A program made the position numbers and the translations under genes. This document shows, piece after piece, positions 1,939-56,300 of a DNA stretch of 64,000 nucleotides; the first letter of the stretch is position 1, and each line of letters begins with the position of its first letter. The DNA is from Sphyrna mokarran (lineage: Eukaryota): positions 16,306,001-16,370,000 of the forward strand of contig JAGIQG010000013.1 of assembly GCA_024679065.1 (NCBI GenBank), written 5' to 3'. Below the pieces are notes generated by a model. That model made no database searches, was not told the DNA's origin, and saw nothing but the letters and a program-made list of their open reading frames with translations.

Positions 1939-2090
1939 TGTGTGAATCCAGAACTAGGGGACATAGTTTTAATATTAGGGGTCTCCCTTTTAGGACAAAG
2001 GTGAGGAGAATTTTTTTTTCTTTGAGGGTTGTCACCTTTGGAATTCTGCCTCAGAGGACTGTGAAAGTAAAGTCACTGAATATTTTTAAG

Positions 2091-2263
2091 ATGTGAAAGT
2101 GCTGGCATTGGACTCAGGTGGGCACAGTTAGGAGTATCACAATATGAGCTTTTGAGCGCTGCTCCTTTAACAGGTCTGTGGAGCCACTCACCTGATGAAG
2201 GAGCAGTGCTCCAAAAGCTCATGATTCCAAATAAACCTGTTGGACTTTAACTTGGTGTTGTGG
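2091..2263. mobile_element. Penelope-derived inverted-repeat insertion with degenerate hammerhead motif
   Basis: Exact 13-bp TSD gaatatttttaag (2078-2090 / 2264-2276); cacCTGATGAaggagcagtgctccAAAAgctc at about 2188-2220 facing its reverse complement at about 2134-2175. Confidence 0.8.
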
Positions 2264-2389
2264 GAATATTTTTAAGGTAGAGTTAAATAGTTTTTTATTG
2301 GGTGAGGGAATCAGAGATTATTGGGGATAGCTGGGAATGTGGAATTCAAAACACAAACAGATCAGCCATGAGTTAAATATGAATTAACA

Positions 2390-10529: not shown

Positions 10530-11584
10530 TCGAGGTACCTCAAAGCAAAGAGTGGGGGTAAGTGGATATTTTTCTGGTTACCTCAGGATCAGTGTTGGGA
10601 CCACAATTGTTTATGATTTACATAGATAATTTGGAGTTGAGGTCCAAATGTAGTATATCAAAATCTGCAGATGACACTAAGATGAGTGGCACAGCAAAGT
10701 GTGCAGAGGATGCTCAAAGTCTGCAAAGACTTTGAGTATAGAGTTAGTGAGTGGGTGAGGTTCTGGCAGATGGAATATAATGTTGGGAAATGTGAGGTCA
10801 TCCATTTTGGTAGGAATAACAGCAAAATTTATTATTTAAATTGCAGCATGCTGCTGTGCAGAGGGACCTGGGTGTCTTTGTGTAAGAATCACAAGGAGTT
10901 GGTTTTGCAGATGCAGCAGGTAATTAAGAAAGCAAACGAAATTTTGCCCTTCATTGCTCGAGAGATGGAGTTTAAAAACAGTGAGGTTATGTAGCAGCTA
11001 TAAGTTGCTGGTGAGGCCACACTTGGAGTGCTGTGTAAAGTTTTGGTCTCCTTACTTGAGAAAGGATATACTGGTGGTGGAAGGGATGCAGAGGAGATTT
11101 ACTAGCTTGATTCCGGAATTGAAAGTTTTGGCTTATGAGGAGAGACTGAGTAGAATGGGGCTATACTCATTGGAATTCAGAAGAATGAAAGGAGGTCTTA
11201 TAGAAACATATAAGATTATGAAGAGACTAGATAAGGTAGAAACAAAGAAATTGTTTCCAATGGCAGATGAAACTGGAACTAAAGGGCATGACCTAAAAAT
11301 AAGGGGGAGCAGATTTAGGACTGAGTTGAGAAGGAATTTCTTCACGCAAAGGACTGTGAATCTGTGGAATTCCCTGCCTAGTGAAGCAGTGAGGCTACCT
11401 CATTGAATGTTTTTAAGGCAAGGATGGATAAATTTTTGAACAGTAAAGGAATTCAGGGTTATGGTGAGTGGGTGGTGAAGTAGAACTGAGTCCACGAAAA
11501 GATCAACCATGATCTTATTGAATGGCGGAGCAGGCAAGAGGGGCCAGATGGCCTACTCCTGCTCCCAGTTCTTGTGTTCTTATG
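10530..11584 (+). mobile_element. CR1 LINE RT 3' part
   Basis: WQMEYNVGKCEVIHFGRNN; LVRPHLECCVKFWSPYLRKD; FFTQRTVNLWNSLP; gttcttgtgttcttatg tail. Confidence 0.92.
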
Positions 11585-12531: not shown

Positions 12532-15500
12532 CATAGAAACATAAAACACTAAAGCACAGAAACAAACCTTTTGACTCTTCTTGGCTGTACCAAACCATTT
12601 TTCTCCCTAGTCCCACTGACCTGCACCTGGACCAGATTCCTCCACATCCCTCTCATGCATGTATGTACCGGTCCAAGTTTTTCTTAAATGTTAAAAGTGA
12701 GCTCGCATTTACCGCTTCATCTGGCAGCTCATTCCACACTCCAACCACTCTCTGTGTGAAGAACCCCCCCCTCCCAATATTCCCTTTAAACATTTCCCCT
12801 TCACCCTTAATCCATGTCCTCTTTTTTTCTCCCGTAGCATCAGTGGAAAAAGCCTGCTTGCTTTCACTCTATCTATACCCATCATAATTTTATATACCTC
12901 CATCAAATTTCCCCTCATTCTTCTACGCTCCAGGGAATAAAGTCCTAACCTATTTAACCTTCCTCTGTAACTCAGTTTCTCAAATCCTGGTAACATTCCT
13001 GTAAACCTTCTCTGCACTCTTTCAACCTTATTAATATCCTTCCTATAATTAGGTGACCAAAATTGCACACAATACTCTAAATTTGGCCTCACCAATGTCT
13101 TATACAACCTCATCATAACATTCCAACTTTTATACTCAATACTTTGATTTATAAAGGCCAGTGTTCCAAAAGCACTCTTTATGATCCTATCTACCTGTTA
13201 TGCCACTTTTAAGGAATTATGTATCTGTATTCCCAGATCCCTCCAATAACTTACCTACTACTGACGTCAAACTTACCAGCCAATAATTTCCCAGATTACT
13301 TTTTGAGCCTTTTTTGAACAACGTAACAACATGAGCTATCCTCCAATCAGCCGGCACCTCATCCCTGGGTACTGACATTTTAAATATATCTGCCAGGACC
13401 TCTGAAATTTCAACACTAGTCTCTTTCAAGGTCTGAGGTAATACCTGGGGATTTATCTACTCTGATTTACCTCAAGACAGCATGCACCTCCTCCCCTTTA
13501 ATATATATAGGTTCCATGACCTCTCTACTTGTTTTCCTTATTTCCATAGACTCCATGCCAGTTTCCTTAGTAAATACGGATGCAAAAAACCATTTAATAT
13601 CTCGCCCATTTCTTTTGATTCCATATATAGCCAACCACTCTGATTTTCAAGAGGAACAATTTTATCCCTTACTATGCTTTTGCTCTTAATATACCTGTAG
13701 GATCTCTTCGGATTATCCTTCACCCTGATTGCCAAAGCAAACTCATGTCTCCTTTTAGTCCTCCTGATTTCCCTCTTAAGTAGTTTCTTGCACTTTTATA
13801 CTCTCCAAGCATCTTATTCATTCCGTGTTGCCTACATGTCATACACCTCTCTCCTTTTCTTTATCTGAGTTGCAATATCTCTCGAGAACCAAGGTTCCTT
13901 AATCTTATTCACTTTACCTTTAATCCTGACAGGAGCATACAAACTCTGCACTCTCAAAATTTCTCCTTTGAAGGCCTCCCACTTATCAATCACATCCTTG
14001 TCAGAGAACAATCTGTTCCAATCCACACTTTTTAGATCCTTTTTCATTTCTTCAAATTTGGCCTTTTTCTAGTTTAGAACTTCAACCCGAGGACCAGATC
14101 TATATGTTGAAACTAATGGCGTTATGATCACTGGAACCAAAGTGGTAGTTATAGGACGGATGTCAGAGGCAGGTTCTTTACACAGAAGGTGATGAGAGCG
14201 TGGAATGCCCTGCCTGCAGCAGTTGTAGACTCGCCTACTTTGGGGGCATTCAAATGTTCGGTGGATAGACATATGGATGATATTGGATTAGTTTAGGTTA
14301 GAGGGTCCACTGGCCGGCGCAACATCGAGGGCTGAAGGGCCTGTACTGCGCTGTAATGTTCTATGTTCTAAAGTGTTCCCCTACACACACTTTCGTCACT
14401 TGTCCTAACTCATTTCCTAATAAGGGGTCTAATATTGCATCCTCTCTAGTTGGCACCTCTATATATTGATTTAGAAAATTTTCCTGAACACATTTTACAA
14501 ACTCCAACCTGTCTAGACCTTTAACAGTATGGGACTCCAAATCTTTATGTGGAAAATTAAAATCCCCTACTATCACAACTTTGTTTCTGGCAGTTGTCTG
14601 CTATCTCTCTGCAGATTTGCTCCTCCAATTCTCACTGACTATTGGGTGGTCTATAATATAACCCCATTAATGTGGTCATATCTTTCCTGTATCTCAGGTC
14701 CACTCATATGGTCTCAGTAGACAGGCCTTCTAATCTGTCCTGCCTGAGCACTGCTGCAACATTTTCCTTGACTAGCAATGCCACCACCACCCCACCCCAC
14801 CCCCACCCTTCATCCCTCTACCTCTATCATGTTTGAAACATCGGAACCCTGGAACATTGAGCTCCCATCCTGCCTCTCTTGTAGCCAAGTTTCACTAATG
14901 GCTATAATGTCATAATTCCATGTGTCAATCCACACCCTCAACCAGTCTGCCTCCCCCACAATACTCTGGTATTGAAATGGACACACCTCAGAAGATTATT
15001 ACCACCACACACAACCCTTCTATATGTGATTTTGCATGAACTATTAACATCATTTATTTTCACCCCCACTCCATTATTTGCTCTGGCACTTTGGTTCTCA
15101 TCCTCCTGCAAATCTAGTTTAAACCCTCCCCAATAACACTAGCAAACCTCCCTACACAGATGTTGATCCCCTTGTAGTTCAGGTGTAACCCGCCTTTCTT
15201 GTACAGGTCCCACCTGCCCCAGAAGAGGTCCCAATGATCTAGAAATCTGAAACCCTGCCCCCTACACCAGTTCCTCAGCCACGTGTTCATCTGCCTGAGC
15301 ATCCTACTCTTGCCTTCACTGGCATGTGGCACAGGTAGCAATCCTGAGATTACTACCCTCGGGCCCCTACTTTTTAACTTCCTACCAAGCTCTCTACACT
15401 TACTCTTCAGGACATCCTCACTCTTCCTTCCTACATCATTGATATCGATGTGTACTATGACATCTGGCTGAACACCTTCCTACTTCAGAATGCTGTGCAC

Positions 15501-27679: not shown

Positions 27680-30140
27680 TGTATCCCTCCATCTCTAATC
27701 TGCTCATGTCCTTTCTAGGTAAGCCTTAAACAACCCTAGCATTGTCTGCCTCCACCACCCCACTTAGCAATGCATTCCAAGCCCCCACAACCCTCTGTGT
27801 GAAAAACCTCCCTCAAACAACTGAATTATACCTCACCTTGAGCCTGTGATTTTTCACATCCAAATTAGGAAAAAGCATCACACTGTTCAGTCTATACCCT
27901 TTCATAATTTTATATGCCTCTATTAGGTCGCCCCTCATTCTCCATCTTGCCAGAGAGAACAACTCCAATTTGCCCAACCTCTCCTCATAGCTAAGACCCT
28001 CCATACCAGGCAGCATCCTAATAAACTTCCTCTGCACTCTCTCCAAGGCCGCCACATCCTTCCAGTAGTGTGGTGACCAGAACTGGACACAGTACTACAA
28101 ATATGGTCTAACCAACGAGGTACACAACAGCAACATTAGATGCCAGTTTTTATACTCTATAACCCCTTCCAATGAAGGCAAGCATACCATATGGCGCCTT
28201 CATCACCTGTGCTGCCACCTTCAAGGACTTGCACACCTAGGTCCCTCTGTGTTTCTATATTCTTAATGGCCTTACCATTTATTGGATAGCTACCCCCTAC
28301 ATTATTTCTTCCAAAATGCATCACCTCACATTTACTTGGATTAAATTTCATTTGCCATTTCACTGCACAATGGTAGGATTCTTAATAGTGTTGATGAACA
28401 GAGGGATCTTGGTGTATATGTGCACAGATCCCTGAAAGTAGGCAGTCAAGTCGATAAGGTTGTTAAGAAGGCATATGGAGTCTTAGCTTTTATTGGTAGG
28501 GGGATTGAATTTCGGAGCCGCAACGTCATGTTGCAACTGTACAAACTCTAGTGCGGCCGCACTTGGAGTATTGTGTGCAGTTCTGGTCCCCACATTATAA
28601 GAAAGATGTGGAGGCATTGGAGAGGGTACAGAGGAGGTTTACCAGGATGTTGCCTGGTATGGAGGGCAGGTCTTATGAAGAGAGGCTGAAGGATTTGAGG
28701 TTGTTTTCGTTAGAAAGGAGGCGGCTAAGAGGGGACCTTATCGAAATATATATGATTAGAGGTTTAGATAGGGTGGACAGTGATAGCCTTTTTCCTAGGA
28801 TGGAGAAAGCTAGCACGATGGAAAAACAGCTTTAAATTAAGGGGTGATAGTTATAGGACGGATATCAGAGGTAGGTTCTTTACCCAAAGGGTGGTTCGGG
28901 AGTGGAATGCCCTGCCTGTGGCAGTTGTAGATGCGCGAAGTTTGGTGGCGTTTAAGAGGTTAGTTGATAAGTATATGGAAGAGAAGGGAATGGTTTAGTT
29001 TGGAGGGTCATTGCTTTTTATATTGATTGGCGCAACATCGAAGGCCGAAGGGCCTGTTCTGTGCTGTAATGTTCTATGTTCTATGCTGTATTGTCTGACA
29101 CTGTTCATCACTATCAGCAATTCCAGTCATCTTCGTGTCAGCTGCAAACTTGCTGATCACACCAGTTACTCCCTCTTCCAAATCATTTATATGTATCACA
29201 AAAGCAGCGGTCCCAGTAGAGAGCCCTACAGAACACCACTAGTCACAGACTTCCAGCTAGAAAAAGGTCCTTCCACTGCTACCCTGTTTCCTGTTGCCAA
29301 GCCAATTCTGAACCCATCTAGCCACCTGTCCTTGTATGCCATGAGCCTTAACCTTTTTCACCAATCTGTCATGAGGGACTTTGTCAAATGCCTTATTGAA
29401 ATCCATGTAGAGCTCTTGCTTTGTCAACTGTTTCTATCATCTCCTCAAAAAAATTCCACCAGATTTGTAAGGCACAACCTCTGTTTTACAAAGCCACGTT
29501 GCCTGTAATCAGATTACTATGTTCTAAATGCACGTACATCCTATCTCTAAGAATCTGTCTAACTTCCCTATCACTGACGTCAAGCTCACCAGCCTATAAT
29601 TACCAGGGTTATCCCTACTACCCTTTTTTAAACAGTACCATATTTGCTATCCTTCAATCCTCTGTGACCTTACCTGTGTCTAAAAAAGAGACAAAGATTT
29701 CCTTCAGAGGCCCAGCAATTTCATCTTGTGTCTTCCTAAGCAGCCTAGGATAAATGCCATCAGGCTCTGGAGACTTGTCAGTTTTAATATTACCTAAAAA
29801 CCATTACACTTCTTCCCTTGTAATGGAGATTTTCTCCATCAGGTCAACAACTCACTCCAAGACACTTCCAGACAACAAGTCCCTCTCCTTTGTGAATAAT
29901 GACAAGTATTCATTCAGGATCTCCCCCATTCCCTTGAGCTCTAAACATAATTCCCCTCTTTTGTCCCTAAGAGGACCGATTTTTTTTTTCTCTTAAAAAC
30001 TCTTTTGTTTCTAACACATGAATAAAATGCCTTTGGATTATTCTTAATCTTGTCTGCCAAGACCATTTTGTGACCTCTTTTCGCCCTTCTAACTCCCCAT
30101 TTGAGTTCTCTCCTATTCTCTTTGTATTCCTCCAAAGCTC
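27680..30140 (-). mobile_element. CR1 LINE ORF2 remnant hosting a young CR1
   Basis: [25 protein letters not shown]; WQMKFNPSKCEVMHFGRNN; LADKIKNNPKAFYS. Confidence 0.85.
28369..29085 (+). mobile_element. Young CR1 3' part
   Basis: [35 protein letters not shown]; nearly identical to 46496-47114; (gttctat)n tail. Confidence 0.93.
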
Positions 30141-30683: not shown

Positions 30684-33173
30684 GGTCATGAATCAGAATT
30701 CAGTAACTCCAGTAGTATGTGTTGGCATAAATTTATCTATTTGAAAAACAGATTACTATTAAAGAATGTGCTAAGAAACAGCAAAATATCATTTTTAATA
30801 ATACTTTTATCTCTTTTACCAGTAAATATAAGTCTGGTAAAACCTTTATCTTCAAATATATTATCTGGTTTGACATCATTTACAACTGATCAAACAATGG
30901 TGAGAAAATAGCCAGGAAAAAATGTAATTTATCATAAAAATCCAACTGGCTTGCTACTGGCATTTAGGAAACAGTGTTTGTCCCAATACCCGGTGTAACA
31001 TGCATGTGATTGCTGTCAAACACAATGCATTTGACTCAATACTGTGGCTGTTAAGCAACAAGGATATAGAGGAATTTCATACAAATCTTACATCAACATT
31101 GACTATTAAAATCTTTATGGCAGAAGAAAGGAGATTTCATTTTAATTTTAATCAATTAATTTAGCTCATTGCTTCCCAAATTTCCTTACAGTTTACTACT
31201 CACCTATAAATTTTTTTTATATATAATGGATACTAAATGGGAACTGAATTAGATCTCTCTGTCATGATCCAATTAGCTCTGGCTTCATAAACACTGTTTC
31301 CACTGAAAAGATTATTAGTCTCAATGTAATGGTATGGATGTAGTACCTCACTTACACAGCCCACATGATAAGCTTTAATTAGCCCAAAACAAATTAAATT
31401 ACACCAGGCTTGGTAATACTTTGAAAGAAAAGTATTTGGGAACCAATCCCTAATAATATATCCAAGTGGTCATGGGGGACAGACACAGTTACACGTGAGC
31501 TAGAGTTGTAGTCGGAAAGAAGTGCTGCATGATGCTGAGTTGCTTCCTCATCGATAACTTGAATGCTAAGCTATTCACAAGCATAATGAATGCTAAGCAT
31601 AACACAAAGATCTTGTGTTTAGGATTGTGTTGTACGGATAGACATGGTGATCAACAAATTACCAGGAAGAACAGGACTTATTTTTAAAAAATCAGTGTTA
31701 TAACGGGAAGATGATTTGGTCAGTTTTCTCAAAGAATTAATACATTCCTTATCCAAGTTCTTCCTCTATTCTGGAAAAAAAGTGATTACCACTCATTTTA
31801 AAATATGTAAAGAAACAGTACAATATCATTCCCAATAGTATATTTTCTATTTTATTGGTTAATACAGCACAAAAAAATCTAATAAAACCACATCCTCAAA
31901 TATATTTTCCAGTTTGACACCATTTACAGTTAATTGAACAACATTTTCAACTGAACACACTTGTCATTAGAGGTAAGCTGTTTCTGAATACTTTCCTTTC
32001 AGTTTATACTGCAAACAATTAACACTGAACTGGTTTACAAAAACCATTTTCCATGCTTAAGAACAATCCACTGAAAAAAAATAAAAAATATGTACAAAGA
32101 AATATGATTTTGAAAAGATTGGAGTCATTGGAATAATACTGCATTAATAGCTATTGACATTTCAACTACAATAACAAAATATTGGAAATCTGAAATGAAT
32201 ACAAAATTGCTGGACATATACATCAGGTCTAGCAACACCTATGAACAGAGTTTACTATTTTAGCTTGATGATCTTGCATCAGAATTGACTGAAAGCGTAA
32301 CTCTTTCTCTTGCCACAGATGCTTTCAAACTTGCTGAGTGCCGACATTTTAATTGTACAATAAATAATAAATTAACATTGTAAAATAAATTCATCCTGTA
32401 CACAATTTTATTACCATAAGCTGAGCTTTGTGTTACCATTTGATGGTTAGCAGTAGCTAAACACAAGAGCAGCTTTGAATATCCTCATCCCACAAGGTGA
32501 AATAGTATCTTTCCCCGGAATTCTATTCCTTTGAGTTACAGACATAAATGTCCCAAAGTAAGTTTTGGTCCCTTAGCATACATCTTACCAATTCTTAATC
32601 ATGTCAGTGTTGGAGTTAACTATTACAGGAGGATAATCCATCTTGAGAGAAAAACTGATTAATCGGCTTTCTTGAGAACCATAAGCACACCTCCAAGCAC
32701 AAAGCAGCATTGGTAGCATTTGCATGATTTTCTGTCGAGCAGATTTTCCCTCCCAGGTAAAGAATTCATGAGATGAACCACAGTTATTTAACACTATCAT
32801 TCTATACTATATTGTTTATGATAACTGGTATCTGAATGATATCTGAGATGCTATTATATAATCTTTAAGATACAAAATGTCTGTCTTTTCCTGTTTGAAA
32901 ATTACTTTTCATTAAATTCAACTGAATTTAATAAAATGCAATGCTACAAGTCAGCAGCTACAACATTAGAGAATTCCGTCATAGAAGCTCTTTTTAAACA
33001 GTTTCCTTAAAATACATCCAAGAGCATTACATTCAGTTTGTTTTTTTTTACAAATAAATAGATTTTTGTAAGTAAAGTTTCCAGTGATTAAAAACTTTAG
33101 GTTAACCTAATTATATTCCAACATAAATGTCAGCAATTCAATATTGAAAGAGCTGAAAATTTATCAGATTTAA

Positions 33174-33179
33174 TTTATT
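33174..33179 (-). promoter_or_regulatory. Candidate proximal POLQ polyadenylation signal
   Basis: AATAAA on the - strand about 150 nt past the stop; further candidates at 32407-32412 and 31851-31856. Confidence 0.4.
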
Positions 33180-33325
33180 TAAAAAGATATATTAATTATA
33201 TTCAGTGAACCCATAAGAAACAATTTCATTTCTGAACTGAGTATTAATTATAAACCAGGCGTCTAGCACAAGAAAATAAATAGACAGGAAAGTCACCAAC
33301 ATCTGTTAATCTGGCAAATTCTTCA

Positions 33326-33439
33326 CTACAAGTCTAAGTCTTGAAGATTCCCCCAACTTGGACCAATCTTCACTTTGACACAAAGTTTCACTAGCAGTTT
33401 CATGGCATTTTCCATTTCATTTTTCACTATCTGTGCAAT
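33326..33439 (-). CDS. POLQ: POLQ terminal coding exon (ex30 equivalent)
   Basis: IAQIVKNEMENAMKLLVKLCVKVKIGPSWGNLQDLDL*; CATCAG| acceptor, TAG at 33326-33328. Confidence 0.96.
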   Translation of the reverse strand: MAQIVKNEMENAMKLLVKLCVKVKIGPSWGNLQDLDL

Positions 33440-33713
33440 CTGATGAGGGCCAGAGATTGAGAAAAGTGATCAGAAACATAATTTGATTAAATAAATACAC
33501 ACAAGATAGTTTGGAGGACTGTATCCTCTATATTAATTACCCAATCTTTAAACAGAAAAAAAAGTACATCAAAAATTCTGCCTAAAACAAAAACAAAGCA
33601 CAAATGAAACTTAAAACATCAAATCAAAGGATGATTAAAAGAGTTAATGACCACACTCCAGTCCCTGCAGTGCTCAAAAGATGTGGAAGGCCTCAATAGT
33701 ATCCACACACATT

Positions 33714-33852
33714 ATGTAGAGATGCCAGCGTTGGACTGGGGTAAGCTCAGTAAGAGGTCTGACAACACCAATTTTAAATCCAACCAATTTATTTGATAGT
33801 AAACTTGCTAGCTTTCGGCGTTTGCGCCTTCGTCAGGCGAATGAGGTGTTCT
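33714..33852 (-). mobile_element. Penelope-derived terminal fragment in last POLQ intron
   Basis: atgtagagatgccagcgttggactgggg...; same family as 38128-38359. Confidence 0.8.
33805..33841 (-). ncRNA. Minimal type I hammerhead ribozyme motif
   Basis: TTCGC CTGACGA A GGCG CAAA CGCC GAA AGCT A GCAA: complete core, 4-bp stem II, palindromic stem III, short stem I. Confidence 0.65.
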
Positions 33853-34695
33853 AATCTCCAAAAGCACACATATACACATAGCCAGCTCTGGTTTTATATC
33901 CCAGCCCACTTCCATTCCCCCACAAGTAACCCCTCTCCCCCCAACCAACCCTGCCTGCTTCCTCTATCACCCCCTACTGCCCTTGGTCCTTGTCTACCTC
34001 CAATTCCCTAACTCCCCCAATCCGTGCCCTCCTCCATTCCCCCGCACATCCCTACCTCACCTCCGACCAACATTCCCTCTCCACACCCTAGTCCCCCTCT
34101 GTTCCCTCGCCCTCCTTTTCGTCCCACAGGATGTACCAAGATTAGATCTGCATCTGAACAATTGCTATAATCTTATATCCTTACTCTGTATCTTCTAATA
34201 GCTTTCTTTTTTGTATTACTGATGGGCAGCAATGCATTTAATATTCTAATATTTCTTTGTGTGAAAAGGTTCCTGGCTATCTTCGTTATTAATACTAAAT
34301 TTATGCACTTTTTTAAACCAATTTATTTGTGGAAAAGATTTTTCACTACCTATTTGATCATTTTGAACACTCTAATAGCTCTCCCCTTCTAATACAAACT
34401 TATTTTTTCAAGTTTTTCGACATAACTAAATCTACTGATTGTCTCGTTAGTAAATTTGTGTTAAAAGCCTTCTCCAAAATCTTTACATAATGGGGTTTGC
34501 AAAATCACTACTTCAACTTTAGCTTTTCTACCGAGTTACATAGATGCATCGTTACATCCAAGCTGTTGCATTCATCGTACACTCAGCATTCAATTAGCTT
34601 GTTTTCTGTTTTTTCATAGTATTTTGAGACTGAAATGAGCACTTTTTGAAAAAAAGACAATGTAAATTAAATGAACAAATTCTTCACACTCCCAC

Positions 34696-34811
34696 CTGTA
34701 TCAGGTCATTTTCTGCAACTTCATAAAGTAGCTCATCATGTAATTGCAAGATGAAAAAGCCTCCACTCTCTGGTCGGTAAGTTTCTCGCTGTTTTTTCCT
34801 TTCAATCATGT
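34696..34811 (-). CDS. POLQ: POLQ exon (ex29 equivalent), motif C
   Basis: 116 nt; DMIERKKQRETYRPESGGFFILQLHDELLYEVAENDLIQ; catalytic HDE. Confidence 0.96.
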
Positions 34812-35029
34812 CTACATTTGGGTACAAATATCAATTAATCTCAAATTACAAATTTCAACCAAGGTGATCACAATCTCCTCCCAACCTCATGACATGATTA
34901 GAATTTAAATGTCATCAAATGTACCTACAGTTCCAGAAAATAAATTAGATTTCAAATTCAATCATAGGGCAGGAGGCAAACGTTTCATTTCTCTCATCCA
35001 TTTCCTTCCCCCTCAAAACTACTATAAAT

Positions 35030-35660
35030 GTTTCCCTTGTCCTCACCTTCCACCCACCACCTTCTGTAATTTCAACAGATCATCCTCTAACATCTTCCGC
35101 TCTCCTCCCCTCCCAACATTCCAGAGGGACATTTCCCCTCCATAATACTGTTACAATGGCCCACTTGTCTCAAATTAATCCTAGATCTATAAACATAGAC
35201 AGGGATCACCGGTAGAGGTGGGAACATTAGGGTGGCGGCGCGGGCTTGTTGGGCCGAAGGGCCTGTTTCCCGTGCTGTTTTGTTCTTTGTTCTCAGTCTC
35301 ATTCAACACCCTATCCCCTTCCCATGGTACCTTTCCATGTAAAACGAGAAGACAAAACATCTGTTCTTTTACCTCCTCTGGCTCAATGTCCAAGGCCTCA
35401 AACAATCTTTCCTGGTGAAGCAGCAATTTGTGTGTACTTCTTTCAATCTTCTCTACGTTATTCATTGTTAATAATCTGGTCACCTCGCCAGGGGAAGCCC
35501 AAATGCAAATTGAGTGACTTCTCTGCAGAACACTTCCATTCAGTCTGCAAGCATGACCAAGTTTCCAGTGGTTTGTCAGTTTAATTCCCCACCTTGCTCT
35601 CACACTGACATCTCTATTCTTGGCCAGTTAACCTGTTCTAGTAGGGCTCAATGCAAATGA
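35030..35660 (+). mobile_element. Decayed Penelope-like ORF 3' end (GIY-YIG endonuclease region)
   Basis: Frameshifted pieces FRSPPLPTFQRD, HGTFPCKTRRQNICSFTSS, KCKLSDFSAEHFHSVCKHD resemble the PLE Cys-linker/GIY-YIG region; SINE nested at 35165-35292. Confidence 0.7.
35165..35292 (+). mobile_element. SINE 3' fragment (tail type c)
   Basis: Near-identical to 53052-53184. Confidence 0.85.
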
Positions 35661-36227
35661 TTTTGGCAACGTATAAAGTAAGGGGGTGATTTTAACTTCC
35701 TCTATATTGACTGGACTCACTTAGTGTTAGGGGTGTTAATGGACCAGAGTTTGTAAGGAGCATCCAGGAGAGTTTCTTGAAAGCCCATCCACAGAAGGGA
35801 TTATATTGGGGAATGAGCCTGGCAAGATGGTCAACATTTCAGCAGGGGAGCAGATCAGGAAGAGTGATCACAATTCAGTAAGCTTTAAATACTGATGGAT
35901 AAAGGTAAATGTAATCCTCAGGTAAATTGAGGGATGGCTAATTATAACAATATTAGGCTGATGTTTGAAGACAAATCAATATCTGGCACATGGGAGACTT
36001 TCAAATGTAAGGGGTAGGTGAGGTAAGAACAAAAGGAAGATCTGTTATAAGGTGAGAACAGGAGAGATTGAATGACAGAAAAGTTAGTCCTCCAGGGACA
36101 AAGGGAATGGAGAAGAGAAATAAACTAAAGATGTGGCTAGAGCAGTTTGCTGCTAACTCATGGTGGGAGAGAAAACCAAGCAAAGGAAACTAAATGTGTG
36201 CAGAGATAATGTTCTGAAGTTGTTGAG

Positions 36228-36422
36228 TCCAAAGATGTGCGGGTTAGGTTGATTGGCCACGCTAAAATTGCCCCTTAGTGTCCTGAGTTGCATAGGTTAA
36301 AGAGATTAGTGGATAAAATACGTAGGGATTTGGGGATAGGGCTTGAGTGGGATTGTGGTAGGTGCAGATTCGATGAATCGAATGGCCTCTTTCTGTACTA
36401 TAGGGTTTCTATGATTTCTATG
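36228..36422 (+). mobile_element. 5'-truncated HE1/V-type SINE (tail type b)
   Basis: tccaaagatgtgcgggttaggttgattggccacgctaaaattgcccctt...tttctatgatttctatg. Confidence 0.85.
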
Positions 36423-36635
36423 AATAGGAAGGCTAACTAAAAGATGACGCACTGCTCCTGAAGTTTGTGTTTAGTTCATGTGATACAGGTTGTCTGCCAT
36501 GTAATGAAATGACAACTCAGCATCATACTGACAACCTCACCTAATTGGTATAAGAATTGGGCTTCACATTCAGAAAGAGAGGTTCATGGCTCAATTAATT
36601 TGCTCTGAATAAAAATACACGCATTTGGATCAACA

Positions 36636-36922
36636 CAATGGCACAGTAGTTAGCATTGCTTCCTCACAGCGCTAGGGACCTGGGTTTGATTTCCAGCTTG
36701 GGTCACAGTGTGTGTGGAGTTTGCATATTCTCCCTGTGTGGGTTTCCTCCAGATGCTCCGGTTTCTTCCCACAGTACAAAAGACATGCTGGTTAGGTGCA
36801 TTGGCCATGCTAAATTCTCCCTCAGTGTACCCAAACAAGTGCCAGAATGTGCAACTAGGGGAATTTCACAGTAACTTCATTGTAATGCTAATGTAAGCCT
36901 ACTTGTGACTAATAAATAAACT
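36636..36922 (+). mobile_element. tRNA-derived V-type SINE (tail type a)
   Basis: tggcacagtagttagc head, gggtttgattt B-like box, V-domain, aataaataaact tail. Confidence 0.88.
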
Positions 36923-37304
36923 TAACTTTTTACTTTTGCAGTTCAGAGGAGTTAAGATGAAGGAATGGGAAAATGGCACAGGCGGGACATAACAAAAAGG
37001 TTAAAGACATATGTGACACATGTCTTTATCCCAAAGTCTTAAATTGCAGTTCCAAATCTGACTGAAACCTAAACTAGCTGAGGAATGTTTGCAGCTGCTT
37101 TGCTGTGACATCAGCTGGGAACTGAGATTATAGGATAAAACAAAACTGAAAAAAAGCCATCAGGATTCTCCTGGTATGTCACCTAAAGTCCCAGGAACAA
37201 ATTGGAACATTGGGGCCAAGTCTCGGAAAAGTCCACAGGTAGCTTACTGTTCCTATTATCTGGAGGGAACAGAAGAGAAATAAAAGACAGATCTTGGTTT
37301 TCAC

Positions 37305-37464
37305 CCAGTTTTGTGTCTTCCTGAAATCTGCTCTTCCAGTGACCGTGTGATTTGGCAACAGAAGGAAAGGTTTCCTCTAATCGTTTCTGAATATTAACAG
37401 TAGCTATTTTGACCAGATCAGCTGCTGATCCTTGTACAGTGGTGTTCACAGCTTGGCGTTGAGC
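37305..37464 (-). CDS. POLQ: POLQ exon (ex28 equivalent)
   Basis: 160 nt; AQRQAVNTTVQGSAADLVKIATVNIQKRLE...SHGH; CAACAG| and |GTGAAA. Confidence 0.96.
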
Positions 37465-37930
37465 CTGTTGGAATAGAATAACCAGAATGTGGATCTGTGA
37501 CAATAATGGAGCGTTGAACTTTCTCAGCTCACATGCAGCAAGGAGCTGGGATAGGATTGAAGAGCTATAAAAACTTGTATTACAAAACCCAATGATTAAA
37601 AGGTACTTTCCAGTTTGTGCTTCAAACAGCCGGTGCCCTGCTACAGAATAATATTCTGACTATTGTGCTTTAGAAAGTACAACCAAACAATGAAAATAAA
37701 TACTTCTGTTTTAAATTTGAACAAATGTGTACATTTTATTACTAAAAAAGCTGCATTTCCTCCCACAGTAATTTTATTACTAAACAAGTTACATGATTGA
37801 AACCACTTGAAATTGAGAGAATATCTATAAAATCCAGTTGATAGAAATCACTGTGCTGATTTAGGGGAGTTTATAGACATATGTAATAATGAGTTATGTA
37901 CTTTCGTAGTTGGCTGTCATCTGTACATTT

Positions 37931-38022
37931 ATGATGTGGAGTTGCCAGCGTTGGACTGAGCCCAGTCTAATGTCGGCATCTCCATATCATGACTACCACT
38001 GACACCACAAACTGGACTTCTC
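37931..38022. mobile_element. Penelope-derived fold-back of the terminal 30 bp
   Basis: atgatgtggagttgccagcgttggactgag directly followed by cccagtctaatgtcggcatctccatatcat; flanks tctgtacattta / tctgtgcactta (10/12). Confidence 0.65.
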
Positions 38023-38127
38023 TCTGTGCACTTACACATAGCTCCAAATTTCTCACACGTGTAAATGAACTTCTATTGAAGAGCAAATCAGGGTGATAAT
38101 TAGATTCACATTGCCAAAACATTTGAA

Positions 38128-38359
38128 GTCATGATGCCGGCGTTGGACTGGGGTAAACTCAGTAAAGTCTGGCAACACCAATTTTAAATCCAACCGATTT
38201 ATTTGATAGTAAACTCGTGAGCTTTCGGCCTTTGTGGCCTTCGTCAGGTGAATGAGGTGTTCTGACATGCCTGATGAAGGCCACAAAGGCCAAAGGTCAC
38301 GAGTTTACTATCAAATAAATCAGTTGGATTTAAAATTGGTGTTGCCAAACTTTACTGAG
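38128..38359. mobile_element. Penelope-derived palindromic insertion with hammerhead motif
   Basis: About 90-bp inverted arms (38158-38248 / 38270-38359); exact 13-bp TSD caaaacatttgaa (38115-38127 / 38360-38372). Confidence 0.88.
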
Positions 38360-38894
38360 CAAAACATTTGAACACAGCAGTGAAACAGCTATGTCTTTAA
38401 ACTGATACAGTGCAGCTTCCATGGGCAATTATAACGATCATCACCTTGAAATTCTAAAAGGCTTTTACCGTGATCCAGAGAGAATCTATTCAATATCCCA
38501 ACTACTTTACACTGCATTCTACTGATTAGATTAGGCAGCTTTAAAAAGTGCTTACAGAATCCAACTTAACTCCTCGGTAACTTGTAAACCAAATTTACAA
38601 TGAATTTACACTCCATGCAACTGCAATTCCAATCAATGCAAGGTTACAGGAATTCTTACTTCTTGCATTTCAAAATCAGACTAAGTCCTGATTCTAGATT
38701 TATATGTTAAACACTCACACTAAACTTGCAGCATAAATGTACTAAAGAGTAATTTTATCCATATACAAATGCTCATTCAATCAAACAGACTACTGGAAAG
38801 ACTGATTATGGACTAGTTTTTTAAATCTTGCATCAAACAGAATCCAATTTTAAGTTGACAACTATAACTTCATCAGAGTGAGATTTGGAGAATT

Positions 38895-39182
38895 ATAAAA
38901 TCCCGAGAGTGCAGGAGGCCATTCGGTCCATCAAGCTGCTCGAACAACAATCCCACCCAGACCGTTTCCCTATAATCTCATATATTTACCTCGCCGATCC
39001 TCTGACACTAAAGGGTAATTTAGCATGACCAATCCACCTAACCAGCATAACTTTGGATTGTGGGAGGAAACCGAAGCACCCAGAAGAAACCCAGGCATTC
39101 ACGGAGAGAACATGCAAACTCCACACAAGCAGTGACGTGAGGTCAGAACAGAGCTAACAGTGCTAACCACTATGCCACAACG
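38895..39182 (-). mobile_element. tRNA-derived HE1/V-type SINE (tail type b)
   Basis: tgggaggaaaccgaagcacccagaagaaaccc; gtgctaaccactatgccac head on the reverse strand. Confidence 0.85.
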
Positions 39183-39705
39183 CCACTCACTGTGCTGCCA
39201 GAAGGGAACAAAAGCTGAGAAAAACAGTGTAGCATTTGACTCCCACCTCAATTGGCCTAACTATGAAGCTAACCGGTGGCCAAGGTGTGAAATATTATTG
39301 AATAACTTGGCAGAGAAGTTGCAATCATATCAGAAGAGGAAATCTACACATTGACAAAAATCAGATCAAATGAAAAGTATTCTTTAGAATTAAATTTTCC
39401 TGTTATGCCTAGATTATTTTTTATTGGCTACATTCATAATTTGAGTCATACATCTTTTGTTTACCTACAATTGTAGATGCTTTTACTTTCTGTGTTTTCA
39501 TTCCAATATGAAGTCAATTTTAACACAGGTTACCATAAAATTTCATTTTATAGCCCCAGCAAAACAGAACAGGAAAATTTCATAAGGCACATTAAAACAT
39601 ATAGCTTGCTAAATACACACTACAATATACTCTAAAACTTCAAACATTAATTGGAGCAAGTTTATCACTTAGGATTTGAATCACTCGGTGCATTGTAATA
39701 CATAC

Positions 39706-39830
39706 ATGAGCTTTAATGTGAGGATTGGGATCCTTTATTGCTAGAAGATACCGTTTCCGGCCTAAAATTGTTTGAACAAATCCATTTTTCTGACAATTCT
39801 TTACTGTTTCCCGGAGAAATGTCTGAATTC
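39706..39830 (-). CDS. POLQ: POLQ exon (ex27 equivalent), fingers
   Basis: 125 nt; GIQTFLRETVKNCQKNGFVQTILGRKRYLLAIKDPNPHIKAH; CCACAG| and |GTATGT. Confidence 0.96.
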
Positions 39831-46127: not shown

Positions 46128-47308
46128 CATACACTTAGAATATAGTGTTCAATTCTGGTTGCCACACTACCAGAAAGATGTGGAAGCTTTGTAGTGGGTA
46201 CAGAAAAGGTTTACAAGAATGTTGCCTGGTATGGAGGGGATTAGCTTTGAGGAGAGGTTGGAAAAACTTGTGTCCTCACTGGAGTAACCGAGGTTGAGGG
46301 GCGATCTGATAGGAGTCTACAAGATTACAAGGGGCATAGATAGACTAGATAGCCAGAAGCTTTTTCCCAGGGTGGAAGAGCCAATTACTAGGGGCCATAG
46401 GTTTAAGGTGCGAGGGACAAGGTTTAAAGGAGATGTACGAGGCAGGTTTTTTTTACACAGAGGGTTGTGAGTGCCTGGAACTCACTGCTGGGGGAACATA
46501 GAACATTACAGCACAGAACAGGCCCTTCGGCCTTCGATGTTGCGCCGACCAATATAAAAAGCAATGCCCCTCCAAACTAAACCATTCCCTTCTCTTCCAT
46601 ATACTTATCAACTAACCTCTTAAACGCCACCAAACTTGGCGCATCTACAACTGCTGCAGGCAGGGCATTCCACTCCCGAACCACCCTTTGGGTAAAGAAC
46701 CTGCCTCTGATATCCGTCCTATAACTATCACCCCTTAATTTAAAGCTGTGTCCCCTCGTGCTAGCTTTCTCCATCCTAGGAAAAAGGCTATCACTGTCCA
46801 CCCTATCTAAACCTCTAATCATCTTATATGTTTCGATCAGGTCCCCTCTTAGCCTCCTCCTTTCTAACGAAAACAACCTCAAATCCCTCAGCCTCTCCTC
46901 ATAAGACCTGCCCTCCATACCAGGCAACATCCTGGTAAACCTCCTCTGTACCCTCTCCAATGCCTCCACATCTTTCTTATAATGTGGGGACCAGAACTGC
47001 ACACAATACTCCAAGTGCGGCCGCACTAGAGTTTTGTACAGTTGCAACATGACGTTGCGGCTCCGAAATTCAATCCCTCTACCAATAAAAGCCAAGGCTC
47101 CATATGCCTTCCTATGGGGGAGGTAGTGGAAGCAGATACATTAGTGAGTTTTAAGAGATGTCTGAACAAACACACATGAATAGAATGGGAATGGAGGGAT
47201 ATGGTTCCCAAAAGAGTAGGGAGTTTCAGTTCAATCAGGCAACATGGTTGGTGCAAGCTTGGAGGGCTGAAGAGCCTGTTCCTGTGCTGTAATTTTCTAT
47301 GTTCTTTA
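46128..47308 (+). mobile_element. CR1 3' part, split by a young inverted CR1
   Basis: HLEYSVQFWLPHYQKDVEAL; host resumes at 47115; ttctatgttc tail ends about 47304. Confidence 0.88.
46496..47114 (-). mobile_element. Young CR1 3' part with uninterrupted 172-aa frame
   Basis: ORF 46577-47095; TSD tggggga (46489-46495 / 47115-47121). Confidence 0.95.
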
Positions 47309-49860: not shown

Positions 49861-50246
49861 CTGAAACATAAATATATGAAGCAAAATTTAAAAGCATTGT
49901 CTTTGTTAACTTCTGTACACCACTGCTACATACTGTACAATTTTACAGTAAGTCATAGAGCGAGTGACCAGAAGCCTATACCAAGTACTAAGTAATTACT
50001 AAGATTAGTCCGACTGTAAAATAAATGGTGCACCTTGAAAAGTGATAATTAGTTTCAATACAGATACTTAGCTCTATAGTTCATTTTTAAAAATATATTT
50101 AAAATGTCCTAGAATGCACTTCTATACAGCAATACTAAGGACACCACCCTTTCAAATCCAGATAATAAAAGCACCCCAACACACCAAGCCAAACGAACAA
50201 GAAAAATCCCGAGGCAGAGGGGAAAGGCTTATTTGTCGAGAGTAAC

Positions 50247-50536
50247 AGTAAGAAGTCTCACAACACTAAGTTAAAATCCAGTTGGTAGTACGAGCTTTCG
50301 GAGCATTGCCCTTTCATCAGGTGAATGAAGAGTTCAGTTCACAAACATATAATAGTTGGAATGTGTTTCTTAACAGGTAATCAAGTCTTTACAAGTGCAG
50401 ACAATGTGAGTGGAGAGAGGTTTTAGCACAAGTTAAACAAGTGTGAATTGTTCCCAGCCAGGACAGTTAGTGAGATTTTGCAAGCCCAGGCAAGTCATAG
50501 GGGTGAAGAGGAGGGGCTTGCTGGCAACTCCACATC
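50247..50536 (-). mobile_element. Penelope-derived insertion with hammerhead motif and inverted terminal piece
   Basis: - strand CAC CTGATGA AAGGGC AAT GCTCC GAA AGCT C GTA (50289-50323); inverted gctggcaactccacatc at 50520-50536; flanks ttgtcgagagtaac / ttgtcaacagtaac (12/14). Confidence 0.78.
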
Positions 50537-51019
50537 TTGTCAACAGTAACTGAAGGCAAAGGGAGAAAAATGAAAAATTATAAACGTTTAAGAAGAAAAC
50601 AGGAAAAAGCAAAATAATTGAAATATTAAAAAGTTACAAGGGAAAAAAGATATACATTTTTACAATTCACCAGGCAGATAGTGTCAGCTTTTTGAAAATA
50701 AAACCATAAAATCAGTGATTACTTTAAAATTAAAGACATTTCATCCATATATCCCGATAGATTTATGGTGCAGATGACAAATAAATTGAGCACACAGAGA
50801 TCAAACTAAATTATTCAATAGTTTTGTTATACATGCAGAGATTTAACACGCTCTGGTCAAACCTATTCATGTAAGCTGTGGAGACTACTGAGACTGTGCC
50901 CAAATTATAACCAAGAAACAATTCTATAAAATAAATAAGGTCACCAATCAAAATGAACTACAGGGATGTTCGAAATATTCAGAAGAAATAAAATGTAGGA
51001 GTTCACTGAGTTCCCATAT

Positions 51020-53369: not shown

Positions 53370-56300
53370 CAAATTCCCAATGGTGCTTATTGTGCAACCA
53401 GCACGTTAGGAAGGGAGTTCTAGGATTTTAACCCAGTACTAATGAAGGAACAACAATATAGTTCTAAGTGAACAGGATGCATGGCTTGGATAGGAACTTG
53501 CAGAAGATGGTTTCCCATTAACTTGATGCCCTTATCCTTCTAAGTGGCAGAGATCATGGGTTTGAAAGGTGCTATCAAAGGAGCTTTGGTGAGTTGCTGC
53601 AGTGCATCTTATAGATGGTACATACTGTTACCATTGTCCATTAGTAGGGAAAGATATCAATGCTCAAGATAGTGAATGAGATACAAGAAAAGTGGGCTGT
53701 TTACTATCAAGTTTCTTTGTTGGAATTGACTTCATCCAGGTAATGGAGAGTATACCATCACACTTCTGACTTCTACCTTGTAGATGGTGGATAAGCTTTG
53801 GAAAATCAGGGTTCCCAGTCTTTAACCTGCTCTAGTAGCCTCAGTATTTATGAGGCTAGTCCAGGACAGTTTCTGATCAATGTTAACCCCCAGAATATTG
53901 ATAGTGGGGGAACCTGTGATGATAATGTCATTGAATATCAAGGGGTGATCATGTCTTGTTGGAGATGGTTATTGCCTGGAACTTGTATGGCACGAATGTT
54001 ACTTGCCATTTGTCAGTCCAAGCCTGGATATTGTTCCGGTCTTGCTGCATTTGAACATGGGCTGTTTCAGTATCTGAGGAATCCCTAAAGGTGCTGAACA
54101 TTCTCCACTTCTGACCTTATGGTGGGAGTTCCACTGATGAAGCAGCTGAAGATGGTTAGGCCTAGGACATTACTCTGAGGAACACTATTGGAGATGACTG
54201 ACCTCCAAAAACCACATCCATATTCTTTTATGCCAGGTATGTCTCTAACTTGTAGAGAATTTTCCATCTGCTTCCCATTGTCTTGTTTTGCTGGGGCTCC
54301 TTGATGCCATCCTTGATCAACTGTTTCCTTGCTCTCACCTCACCTCTGAAGTTCAGCTCATTTGTCCATGTTAGGAGGAATGTTGAAACAAGGTCAGGAA
54401 CTTGATGGTTCTGGCAGAACCCAGCCTGAGTATCTTGCTGAGTAAATGCTGCTTAATAGCACTATCAATGACACCTTTGATCGCTCTAATGACCACCAGA
54501 AGTAGATTGACAAGTCAGTGATTGGTCAGGTTTGATTTATCCTGCTTTTTGTATATAGGAAATATATGGGCAATTTTCAGCCTCACTGAGTGGATGTCAG
54601 TGTTATAACTGTAGTGGAATAGCTTGGCTAGGAGTGCAGCTAGTTCTGAATCATAAATATTATTTCTGGAATATTGTAAAGGCTTTTGCAGTATCCAGTG
54701 CATTCAGCCATTTGATATCATGTAGAGTGAATTGACTTATAGAACATAGAACACTACAGCACAAACAGGCCCTTCGGCCCACAAGTTGTGCCAAACACAT
54801 CAAAAACCTACCCAGCCATAGACCTATCTATAACCCCCAATCCCATTGGATCCCATATACTCATCCAGAAGTCTTTTAAAAGACCGCAGCGAGTTCGCCT
54901 CGACCACCACCGACGGCAGCCGATTCCATTCACTCACCACCCTCTGAGTGAAAAACTTTCCCCTAGCATCCCCTCTGTACTTGCTTCCCTGCACCTTAAA
55001 TCTGTGCCCTCTCGTCACGACCATTTCAGCCCTGGGAAATAGTCTCTGAGAGTCCACCCTATCTATTCCTCTCAACATCTTGTAAACCTCTATCAGGTCG
55101 CCTCTCAACCTTCGTCTCTCCAGGGAGAACAGTCCCAGCTCCCTCAACCTGTCTTCATAAGGCATGCCTCCCAATCCAGGCAACATCCTTGTAAATCTCC
55201 TCTGCACCCTTTCAATAGCTTCCACGTCCTTCCTATAGTGAGGCGACCAGAACTGCGCACAGTACTCCAAGTGTGGTCTGACAAGGGTCCTATAAAGCTG
55301 CAGCATTACTTCCTGACTCCTGAACTCAATCCCTCGATGAACGAAGGCCAGTACACCGTAAGCTTTCTTAACCACATCCTCCACCTGGGAGGCCGATTTG
55401 AGAGTCTTATGGACCCGGACCCCAAGATCCCTCTGCTCTTCCACACAGCTAAGACTCTTATCTTTGATAGTGTACTCATTCATCCCGTTGGATCTGCCAA
55501 TGGGATGAATGACTTGGATGAAGGTTGGCATTTGTGGCCTCATGGAGAGGCAGAGATGGATCATTGACTTGGCATATCTGGCTGAAGGTGGTTGTAAATG
55601 CTTCAAGGCTTGTGTTTTGCACAGACGTGTTGGGGTCCCCGTCATTGAGAGTGGGATATTTCTGCAGCCACATCCTCCAGTAATGTATTTTATTGCCCCA
55701 ACACCTACGCTGACTGGATGTGGCAGGACTTCAAATCTCAGATCTCATCTGTTGGTTGTAGGATCACTTAGTGCTGCCTAATGCTGCTTCCACTGTATGC
55801 AAGTCGTCCTGTTTTAACTTCAAATCAGCAGCTCATTTTCAGATGTGTCTGATGCTGCTCCTGGCTTACCTTCCTGCTCTCTCTATTGAGCTACAGCTGA
55901 ACCACTGGCTTCAAGTGGGGGATATGTCGTGCCATGAGGTTACAGATTGTGATTGAATTCTGGTGCTGCTGATGGCCCACAGCACCTCGTGGATGCTAGA
56001 TACGAATTGCTAAACCAGTTGAAAATTTAGCCTGGTGGTAAAGCCATACAACACAACGGAAGATATTCTCAATGTGAAGATAGATTTTGTCTCCACAAGG
56101 TCTGTGCGGTGATCACTCCTACCGATATCGTTAAAGACTGAAGCATCTATGAGAAGTAGATTGGTGATGGTGAGGTCAAGTAGGTTTTCCCTCTTGCTTT
56201 CCTCACTGCTTGCCACAGTCTCAATTTAGCTGCTATCTCATTTCCGACACTGCCAACTCAGTCAGTAGTGGTGCTATCAAGCCATTCTTGGTGATGGACA

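What the first reader, a model, noticed from the sequence alone, without database searches (positions are those of the whole stretch)
38115..38372. Palindromic mini-element carrying a hammerhead ribozyme and its own antisense, with an exact 13-bp TSD
Seen: a 232-bp insert with about 90-bp inverted arms and a 21-nt spacer. On the POLQ-sense strand one arm reads CTGACGA-A-GGCC-ACAAA-GGCC-GAA-AGCT-C; one arm carries an extra terminal stretch of about 30 nt. Known: Penelope-like elements carry minimal hammerheads in their pLTRs and often insert with an inverted pLTR plus a short tail. Inference: either an extremely truncated PLE insertion or a member of a non-autonomous, retrozyme-like hairpin family. 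In the pre-mRNA the long hairpin would mask the ribozyme and make an ADAR/Dicer substrate. Stem I of this copy is mismatched.
Basis: partly seen in the sequence, partly recalled or inferred. Interest (0 to 1): 0.75.

Follow-up and report, generated by a model that had tools for sequence, protein, structure and literature searches.

The report
Stump of a Penelope retrotransposon insertion
This 232-base hairpin in an intron of the DNA polymerase theta gene is a real, lineage-specific insertion, likely an ordinary stump of a Penelope-type jumping gene whose small ribozyme is predicted to be inactive, and neighbouring stumps hint at how such mirror-image ends would be built.

Summary
In detail: 232-bp insert, exact 13-bp duplication, 92/91-nt inverted arms (86 of 92 columns alike), 30-nt one-sided tail and a minimal type I hammerhead on the POLQ-sense strand. 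Two of three related species show the site without the insert. It is best read as an extremely 5'-truncated Penelope-like (PLE) insertion in the published 'inverted pLTR + pLTR + tail' form, not a discrete retrozyme-like family: 14 of the 21 'spacer' bases continue the same repeat in another copy, four other insertions of this repeat in the window have other breakpoints, and reads give 75 different joints across the centre (15 shown). The ribozyme is predicted dead here (helix I mismatched, masked by the hairpin, needs a dimer). No link to an RT/GIY-YIG frame could be made, no genome was held and no RNA run was listed, so the PLE label rests on structure and ADAR/Dicer use is untested. One lead: neighbours with tail-only or tail/tail arms fit two separate priming events, one from each nick, better than fold-back. 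The scan noted the same pattern before in two other genomes. Ordinary; interest low.

The parts
38115..38127 (.). Left copy of the 13-bp target-site duplication (23% G+C)
   Evidence: site present without the insert in relatives
38128..38157 (-). 'Tail': 30-nt one-sided extension, the 3' end of the element; a family tail of about 38 nt with an 8-nt internal deletion
   Evidence: 8-nt gap against the neighbouring tail copy; loose ends at 38133 in all 4 runs (table 7)
38158..38264 (-).
   Evidence: 89% over 133 columns to the copy at 33721-33852; 5 of 32 listed contig pieces end at 38264 (table 8)
38213..38253 (-). Minimal type I hammerhead: core from 38247, 4-bp helix II, GAAA, self-complementary 4-base helix III region, predicted cleavage between 38219 and 38218; helix I mismatched at its first two pairs
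   Evidence: consensus of PMC4209133 supplement
38265..38268 (.). About 4 unassigned bases at the head-to-head junction
   Evidence: boundaries uncertain by a few bases
38269..38359 (+). Inverted, tail-less pLTR-like stub with a broken hammerhead (38271-38298; GAAA box damaged)
38360..38372 (.). Right copy of the 13-bp target-site duplication
33712..34130 (-). Comparator B: longer copy of the same subfamily, with tail, intact-looking hammerhead, TATA-like box 62 nt above the core and purine-rich upstream part; no inverted arm or duplication found; upstream boundary approximate
2078..2276 (.). Comparator C: palindromic insertion of another subfamily (insert 2091-2263) with tail and exact 13-bp duplication (2078-2090, 2264-2276), other breakpoints
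50233..50550 (.). Comparator D: long tail-less arm plus an inverted tail-only arm (about 50518-50536), 12-of-14 duplication-like flanks
37927..37996 (.). Comparator E: tail/tail mini-palindrome, no duplication found, present in the three relatives
37312..37464 (-). Host context: POLQ exon downstream of the insert (part matched to solved polymerase theta)
39706..39830 (-). Host context: POLQ exon upstream of the insert (ends approximate)

Best explanation
The insert is a lineage-specific insertion with an exact 13-bp duplication, made of two head-to-head stubs of a high-copy hammerhead-bearing repeat end that is likely the pLTR of a Penelope-like retrotransposon, likely put together during this single insertion, with a ribozyme predicted to be inactive. 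Steps: (1, shown) the site was empty in relatives and the 13 bases were duplicated; (2, shown) both arms are 5'-truncated pieces of one repeat, one with the tail and one without; (3, inferred from PMC11167929) the element's RT-endonuclease, supplied in trans by a full-length copy, nicked the AT-rich site on both strands 13 bases apart; (4, inferred, about 0.5 given a PLE) each nick primed its own cDNA on the RNA, one from the outer start site (tail included, about 137 nt) and one from the inner start site (no tail, 91 nt), both reading through the uncleaved hammerhead and stopping 17 and 2 bases above its core; (5, inferred) host end joining joined the two cDNA ends over about 4 filler bases; (6, inferred) the insert has since decayed neutrally. 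It has no function of its own that the evidence points to.
For: Architecture equals the described PLE form: inverted 5'-truncated pLTR, direct pLTR, 30-40-bp tail on one side, short duplication (PMC3846280; PMC8557442). Motif fits the minimal PLE hammerhead consensus; helix II keeps pairing through two-sided changes between copies A, B and C. The 'spacer' is repeat sequence. Empty site: X9 contig 25 has 2 letters where the window has 244, X5 contig 10 has 72 where the window has 284. The repeat is very abundant: 22,661 contigs of the window's own best-matching run were laid on the stretch. Four other insertions in the window have other breakpoints, one with an exact 13-bp and one with a 12-of-14 duplication. 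75 joints skip the centre in the four runs; the 15 shown are all different. For step 4: the two arms of D share no sequence and both arms of E are tail, which a fold-back of one cDNA cut at a fixed site does not give; the lizard PLE protein nicks and extends both strands and starts at two sites that bound the tail.
Against: No RT or GIY-YIG sequence was linked to this repeat: 0 PLE domains in 19 frames scanned, no protein relative of the pLTR-tail frame, 0 matches in four collection scans and none in one supplement of PLE sequences. Rfam does not reach threshold. 9 of the 15 joints shown are flagged 'between: not known' and may be alignment breaks at a diverged helix II. The number of copies with this exact junction was not printed; the locus's own centre contig is also missing from the 32 pieces listed, so that absence is weak. 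Both arms share rare letters against the family, which fold-back predicts as well. D could be a former full palindrome that lost its middle later; E and B have no duplication found. The relatives hold 3 more letters at the site than a clean empty site predicts. C's tail-less arm ends more than 10 bases earlier than A's, so the inner start is not one fixed place.
Confidence: 0.82

Rival explanations
1. Same PLE origin, but the inverted arm came from fold-back self-priming of a single cDNA (or antisense template), with the tail left by endonuclease resolution, as suggested in PMC3846280 and PMC8557442. This is a rival for step 4 only (about 0.3 given a PLE; L1-style twin priming on one RNA and others take the rest).
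For: Both arms of A share rare letters and a 2-nt deletion against copy B and the family majority; both arms of C belong to one subfamily; A's inverted arm lies wholly inside the direct arm.
Against: D's arms share no sequence and E has tail on both arms; A's junction shows no clear priming palindrome; both-strand extension is shown in vitro.
Confidence: 0.27
2. A discrete non-autonomous hairpin family: the whole 232-bp palindrome is transcribed and re-inserted as a unit by PLE machinery, like a retrozyme or SINE.
For: A and C are of similar size (232 and 173 bp) and both centre just above the hammerhead; X1 has many short palindromic joints, some at high depth; non-autonomous PLE derivatives are described.
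Against: No tandem units; hammerheads are head-to-head, one broken; centre is ordinary repeat sequence; 5 of 5 window insertions differ in breakpoints; the 15 joints shown all differ; none of 32 listed pieces crosses 38264-38270 (weak, see above).
Confidence: 0.08
3. Not a PLE: a palindromic remnant of another repeat (SINE end, MITE or DNA transposon) in which the hammerhead-like motif is incidental.
For: No coding link found; Rfam below threshold.
Against: Asymmetric tail, variable 13-14-bp duplications, variable 5' truncation and a hammerhead with covarying helix II all match PLEs and not terminal-inverted-repeat elements.
Confidence: 0.05
4. An insertion since co-opted as a regulatory hairpin of POLQ pre-mRNA (editing, small-RNA precursor or splicing control).
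For: Very stable intronic hairpin; a below-threshold match to a microRNA-precursor model (34.2 bits against 90), expected of any long hairpin.
Against: Absent from relatives whose flanks differ by only 7-8%; arms have drifted at 6 of 92 columns, 3 at CpG sites, with no compensation.
Confidence: 0.05

Closest known systems
Complex insertions of endonuclease-bearing Penelope-like elements (Pen2a_Av and others, PMC3846280; general scheme in PMC8557442)
   Same: Inverted 5'-truncated pLTR next to a direct pLTR, head to head; 30-40-bp tail on one side; short target duplication; AT-rich target; strong 5' truncation.
   Different: No reading frame at all, only the two pLTR stubs; duplication 13 bp against 8-10 bp in the rotifer examples read; clade (Neptune, Poseidon) not determined.
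Minimal type I hammerheads of metazoan PLEs (PMC4209133)
   Same: CUGANGAH box, extra base before helix II, G-C first pair, GAAA, self-complementary 15.2/16.2 positions; that paper also reports pairs of motifs 100-700 bp apart on opposite strands and mostly solitary motifs from truncated PLEs.
   Different: Helix I broken next to the core in this copy; second motif broken; no shark example in the supplement part read.
Poseidon of Anolis carolinensis (PAc), in vitro mechanism (PMC11167929)
   Same: Tail as the stretch between two RT start sites; hammerhead upstream of the tail and not cleaved in the template; AT-rich target.
   Different: Different sequence family; the main text does not address inverted pLTRs or duplications; nothing here was assayed.
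Metazoan non-LTR retrozymes (PMC7229834; bioRxiv 10.64898/2026.07.22.740005)
   Same: Small, non-coding, type I hammerhead, PLE-related.
   Different: Retrozymes are head-to-tail tandem units with at least two same-strand ribozymes that yield circular RNA; this is one head-to-head palindrome with one motif per strand.

Membership tests
EN+ Penelope-like element insertion | Terminal repeat carries a minimal type I hammerhead | tested here: met
   motif in A, B, C, D; covarying helix II; consensus
EN+ Penelope-like element insertion | 30-40-bp tail on one end only | tested here: met
   30 nt here, about 38 nt in the family
EN+ Penelope-like element insertion | Inverted 5'-truncated copy adjacent, head to head | tested here: met
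   also C, D, E
EN+ Penelope-like element insertion | Short target duplication made on insertion, AT-rich target | tested here: met
   13 of 13, 23% G+C; empty site in 2 of 3 relatives
EN+ Penelope-like element insertion | Variable 5' truncation among copies | tested here: met
   5 window insertions differ; 75 joints, 15 shown
EN+ Penelope-like element insertion | Repeat belongs to an element with telomerase-like RT plus GIY-YIG frame | tested here: inconclusive
   no genome held; no hit; longest window copies appear to stop short of any frame
Active minimal hammerhead ribozyme | Conserved core CUGANGA ... GAAA ... UH and helix II | tested here: met
   minus-strand arm; broken in the inverted arm
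Active minimal hammerhead ribozyme | Helix I of 3-5 pairs next to the core | tested here: not met
   first two pairs mismatched
Active minimal hammerhead ribozyme | Second same-strand motif for the dimer fold, and an accessible fold | tested here: not met
   helix II probability 0.000 in context; nearest same-strand motif 4.4 kb away at 33836
Active minimal hammerhead ribozyme | Self-cleavage | not testable with these tools
   needs an assay
Non-LTR retrozyme | Head-to-tail tandem units of 150-450 bp | tested here: not met
   0 arrays in 33000-39500
Non-LTR retrozyme | At least two same-strand hammerheads in consecutive units | tested here: not met
   one motif per strand, one broken
Non-LTR retrozyme | Expressed as circular RNA | not testable with these tools
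   no RNA holder listed
Discrete non-autonomous hairpin family / MITE | Many copies with the same ends and the same centre | tested here: inconclusive
   all compared copies differ, but copies of this exact junction could not be counted
Discrete non-autonomous hairpin family / MITE | Inverted repeats flush with the duplication on both sides | tested here: not met
   30-nt tail between left duplication and arm

The most novel reading that the evidence does not exclude
These stumps record the unexplained step of PLE integration: a dimeric RT-endonuclease primes two independent cDNAs, one from each nick, each choosing the outer or the inner start site, and end joining fuses them head to head. Because RT starts near the 5' end of its own mRNA, an mRNA from the pLTR promoter would give only a 100-150-nt run-off product, so the abundant palindromes centred just above the hammerhead would be near-complete copies of the mRNA 5' end and not random truncations. 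Shark genomes, with very many such insertions, would make this directly testable from arm-pair statistics (tail/tail-less, tail/tail, non-overlapping arms; pile-up of 5' ends below the start site or at the ribozyme cut).
Probability: 0.35. Interest if true: 0.55.

Novelty: new member of a known kind. Interest (0 to 1): 0.22.

Why it matters
As a single locus it matters little: it is one of very many decayed insertions and probably neutral. Its use is as a clean example. How PLEs form inverted pLTRs and tails is named as unresolved in PMC8557442, and the set of insertions in this one window (tail + tail-less, tail-only + tail-less, tail + tail, with 13-14-bp duplications) suggests that a genome-wide tally in a shark could decide between dual priming and fold-back, and show whether the hammerhead ever cuts the template in vivo.

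Tried and rejected
No whole genome is held, so the genome-wide BLAST could not be run. Pattern scans for the repeat found 0 matches in metagenome contigs, viral contigs and prokaryote genomes; these collections are not expected to hold it. Rfam: the mir-2009 match (34.2 against 90 bits) and six weaker ones were rejected as hairpin or chance matches; no family at gathering in the window. Pfam on 19 frames gave only polymerase A and a GDSL-like domain, no PLE domain. A protein search with the 52-residue frame over B's pLTR and tail found nothing (weak). The supplement of PMC8557442 held one unrelated 10-base match; file 1 of the PMC4209133 supplement was not searchable; the GenBank file of PMC11167929 could not be read and bioRxiv supplements were not seen, any of which may hold a matching family. 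A pile-up of breakpoints at the ribozyme cut site was considered (the 15 joints shown start at 38165-38218 and resume at 38301-38317) and not accepted: subfamilies diverge just there, and 6 of 6 hammerhead-bearing arms in the window read through the cut site. A splice-site origin of the 5' ends was considered and dropped: the four arm ends (-2, -2, about -8, -17) do not coincide. The helix II slice for D was off by one base and was not used. X8 was not counted as empty because its joining piece was not listed.

Full report
Observation. The insert 38128-38359 is 232 bp and is flanked by identical 13-mers; an exact 13-mer arose in 4 of 20,000 random pairs of boundary windows. The arms agree at 86 of 92 columns (four C/T transitions, three of them at CpG sites, one transversion, one deletion) and fold at -150.8 kcal/mol, z = -21.8. 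One side has 30 extra bases. The host gene is POLQ on the minus strand: residues 65-116 of the frame at 37186-37659 match solved polymerase theta at E = 2e-13, and further exons lie at about 39783, 42999, 47494, 34749 and 33364, so the insert is intronic. The organism is probably a shark or relative; this is an inference from recalled likeness of the repeat, a 'shark metagenome' label among the small-share runs and the earlier notes, not an identification.

It is a real insertion. Contigs of four runs were laid on 37700-38800 at 80% likeness. In X9 one contig joins 38120 to 38365 with 2 letters between where the window has 244; in X5 one contig has 72 letters between 38080 and 38365 where the window has 284, which agrees with X9 once its 30 gap letters are counted. 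So 2 of 3 relatives show the site without the insert; for X8 the joining piece was not listed. Each rests on one contig (depth 2 and 7.6), and both hold 3 letters more than a clean empty site predicts. The right flank differs from the relatives at 7-8% of letters, the arms from each other at 6.5%, which fits an insertion after that split followed by neutral decay.

Anatomy. Five of the 32 contig pieces listed end at 38264. The insert is therefore a direct stub of about 137 nt with tail, about 4 unassigned bases, and an inverted stub of 91 nt without tail. The tail has an 8-nt deletion against a neighbouring tail copy, and loose ends at 38133 in all four runs show the same extra letters, so the family tail is about 38 nt. 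The repeat is very abundant: 22,661, 7,231, 3,901 and 3,572 contigs were laid in X1, X5, X8 and X9 (depth is no copy number).

Ribozyme. The minus-strand motif fits the minimal PLE hammerhead consensus in the supplement of PMC4209133 (main text parts 1-2 of 4 read). Helix II keeps pairing through two-sided changes between A, B and C, which argues that the fold is real at family level, though Rfam's type I model gives only 11.9 bits against 34. In this copy the first two pairs of helix I are mismatched; both changes could be CpG decay (inference). In context helix II has pairing probability 0.000 against 0.997-0.999 alone, and the antisense arm is transcribed first. Such minimal motifs showed no cleavage as monomers in PMC4209133 and needed the element's protein in PMC11167929 (parts 1-2 of 4 and passages read). 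The ribozyme is predicted dead here. The inverted arm's motif has a damaged GAAA box.

One-off product or discrete family. A profile of nine window segments found nine pieces at E below 0.02 in five loci, plus one at E = 0.65 that was dropped. C (2091-2263) is a palindrome with tail and an exact 13-bp duplication but another helix II and other breakpoints. D (50247-50536) has a long tail-less arm and an inverted arm made only of tail (17 bases identical to another tail copy) between 12-of-14 flanks (1 of 400 random pairs reach that). E (37927-37996) is tail against tail, without duplication, and is shared with the relatives. B has no inverted arm found. In the laid runs 75 joints skip the centre; the 15 shown all differ, 13 of them occur in X1, and 9 are flagged as possibly having unknown letters between. 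None of the 32 listed pieces crosses A's junction, but A's own centre contig is not listed either (37,676 pieces not shown), so the count of exact copies is open. There is no tandem array in 33000-39500. The balance favours independent truncated insertions.

Mechanism. PMC11167929 shows in vitro that a lizard PLE protein nicks and extends both strands at AT-rich sites, starts inside the RNA at two sites that bound the tail, and uses uncleaved RNA. Applied here (inference): two nicks 13 bases apart give the duplication; each primes a cDNA, one from the outer and one from the inner start; the cDNAs are joined head to head. Six of six hammerhead-bearing arms in the window read through the cut site, in line with an uncleaved template. 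D, whose arms share nothing, and E, with tail on both arms, fit two primings better than fold-back of one cDNA, the self-priming idea of PMC3846280 (passages and Discussion read) with endonuclease resolution of the tail (PMC8557442, passages). Against: both arms of A share rare letters, which fold-back also predicts; D may have lost its middle later; C's inner end is more than 10 bases off A's. I put dual priming at about 0.5 and fold-back at about 0.3, given a PLE. Four of six arms stop 2-17 bases above the core, about 15-30 bases below where B's TATA-like box would place a start site (spacing from general knowledge); this fits a run-off product trimmed during joining but four arms are too few.

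What could not be shown. No RT or GIY-YIG sequence was tied to the repeat, so membership rests on structure. No RNA run was listed.

Comparison with what is known. Inverted pLTR, tail and duplication are described as typical of PLEs, and opposite-strand pairs of minimal hammerheads 100-700 bp apart are reported in PMC4209133. Non-LTR retrozymes are tandem, same-strand units (PMC7229834, passages; bioRxiv 10.64898/2026.07.22.740005, part 1 of 5 and passages), which this is not. I did not find a dual-priming account of inverted pLTRs in six searches (most hits seen as listings only) or in the main text of PMC11167929, but subscription papers and repeat-database notes were not visible, so it may be in print. 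Two earlier notes of this scan describe the same pattern in other genomes; they agree with a reading I had stated before and are not counted as support.

Verdict. Observation confirmed; interpretation partly supported; a new instance of a known kind; interest 0.22. The novel reading (dual priming and run-off from the mRNA 5' end) has probability about 0.35 and would deserve about 0.55.

Noticed in passing
window 2078-2276: Second palindromic pLTR-like insertion of another subfamily with tail, an exact 13-bp duplication and an internal deletion of about 40 nt in the tailed arm.
   Followed up: yes
window 50233-50550: Insertion with a long tail-less arm and an inverted tail-only arm between 12-of-14 duplication-like flanks; the arms share no sequence.
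   Followed up: partly
window 37927-37996: Tail-against-tail mini-palindrome 130 bp from the finding, older (present in the three relatives laid), no duplication found.
   Followed up: partly
window 33712-34130: Longer copy of the same subfamily with a TATA-like box at 33898 on the minus strand and a purine-rich upstream part; no duplication or inverted arm found.
   Followed up: partly
window 38269-38359: With B as outgroup, 5 of the 6 differences between the arms fall in the inverted arm; too few to be significant.
   Followed up: partly
window 37976-38120: Relatives X9 and (by arithmetic) X5 hold about 30 letters here that the window lacks, and 3 extra letters at the insertion site.
   Followed up: no
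window 27997-28100 and 28563-28666: Inverted repeat with 104-nt arms, 84% complementary, 462 nt apart; not matched by the pLTR profile.
   Followed up: no
window 10924-11406, 12709-13197, 46577-47140, 54824-55744: Four related open frames without a Pfam match; they look like 3' remnants of CR1/L2-type LINEs (recalled likeness, not tested).
   Followed up: no
window 15114-15479: Frame with a GDSL-like lipase match (PF13472, E = 1e-9), possibly the esterase-like first frame of a LINE (recalled).
   Followed up: no
window 38205-38218 / 38301-38317 (joints): The best-supported joints of other copies lie just below the ribozyme cut site on both sides; may be an alignment effect of subfamily divergence or a sign of cleaved templates.
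   Followed up: partly
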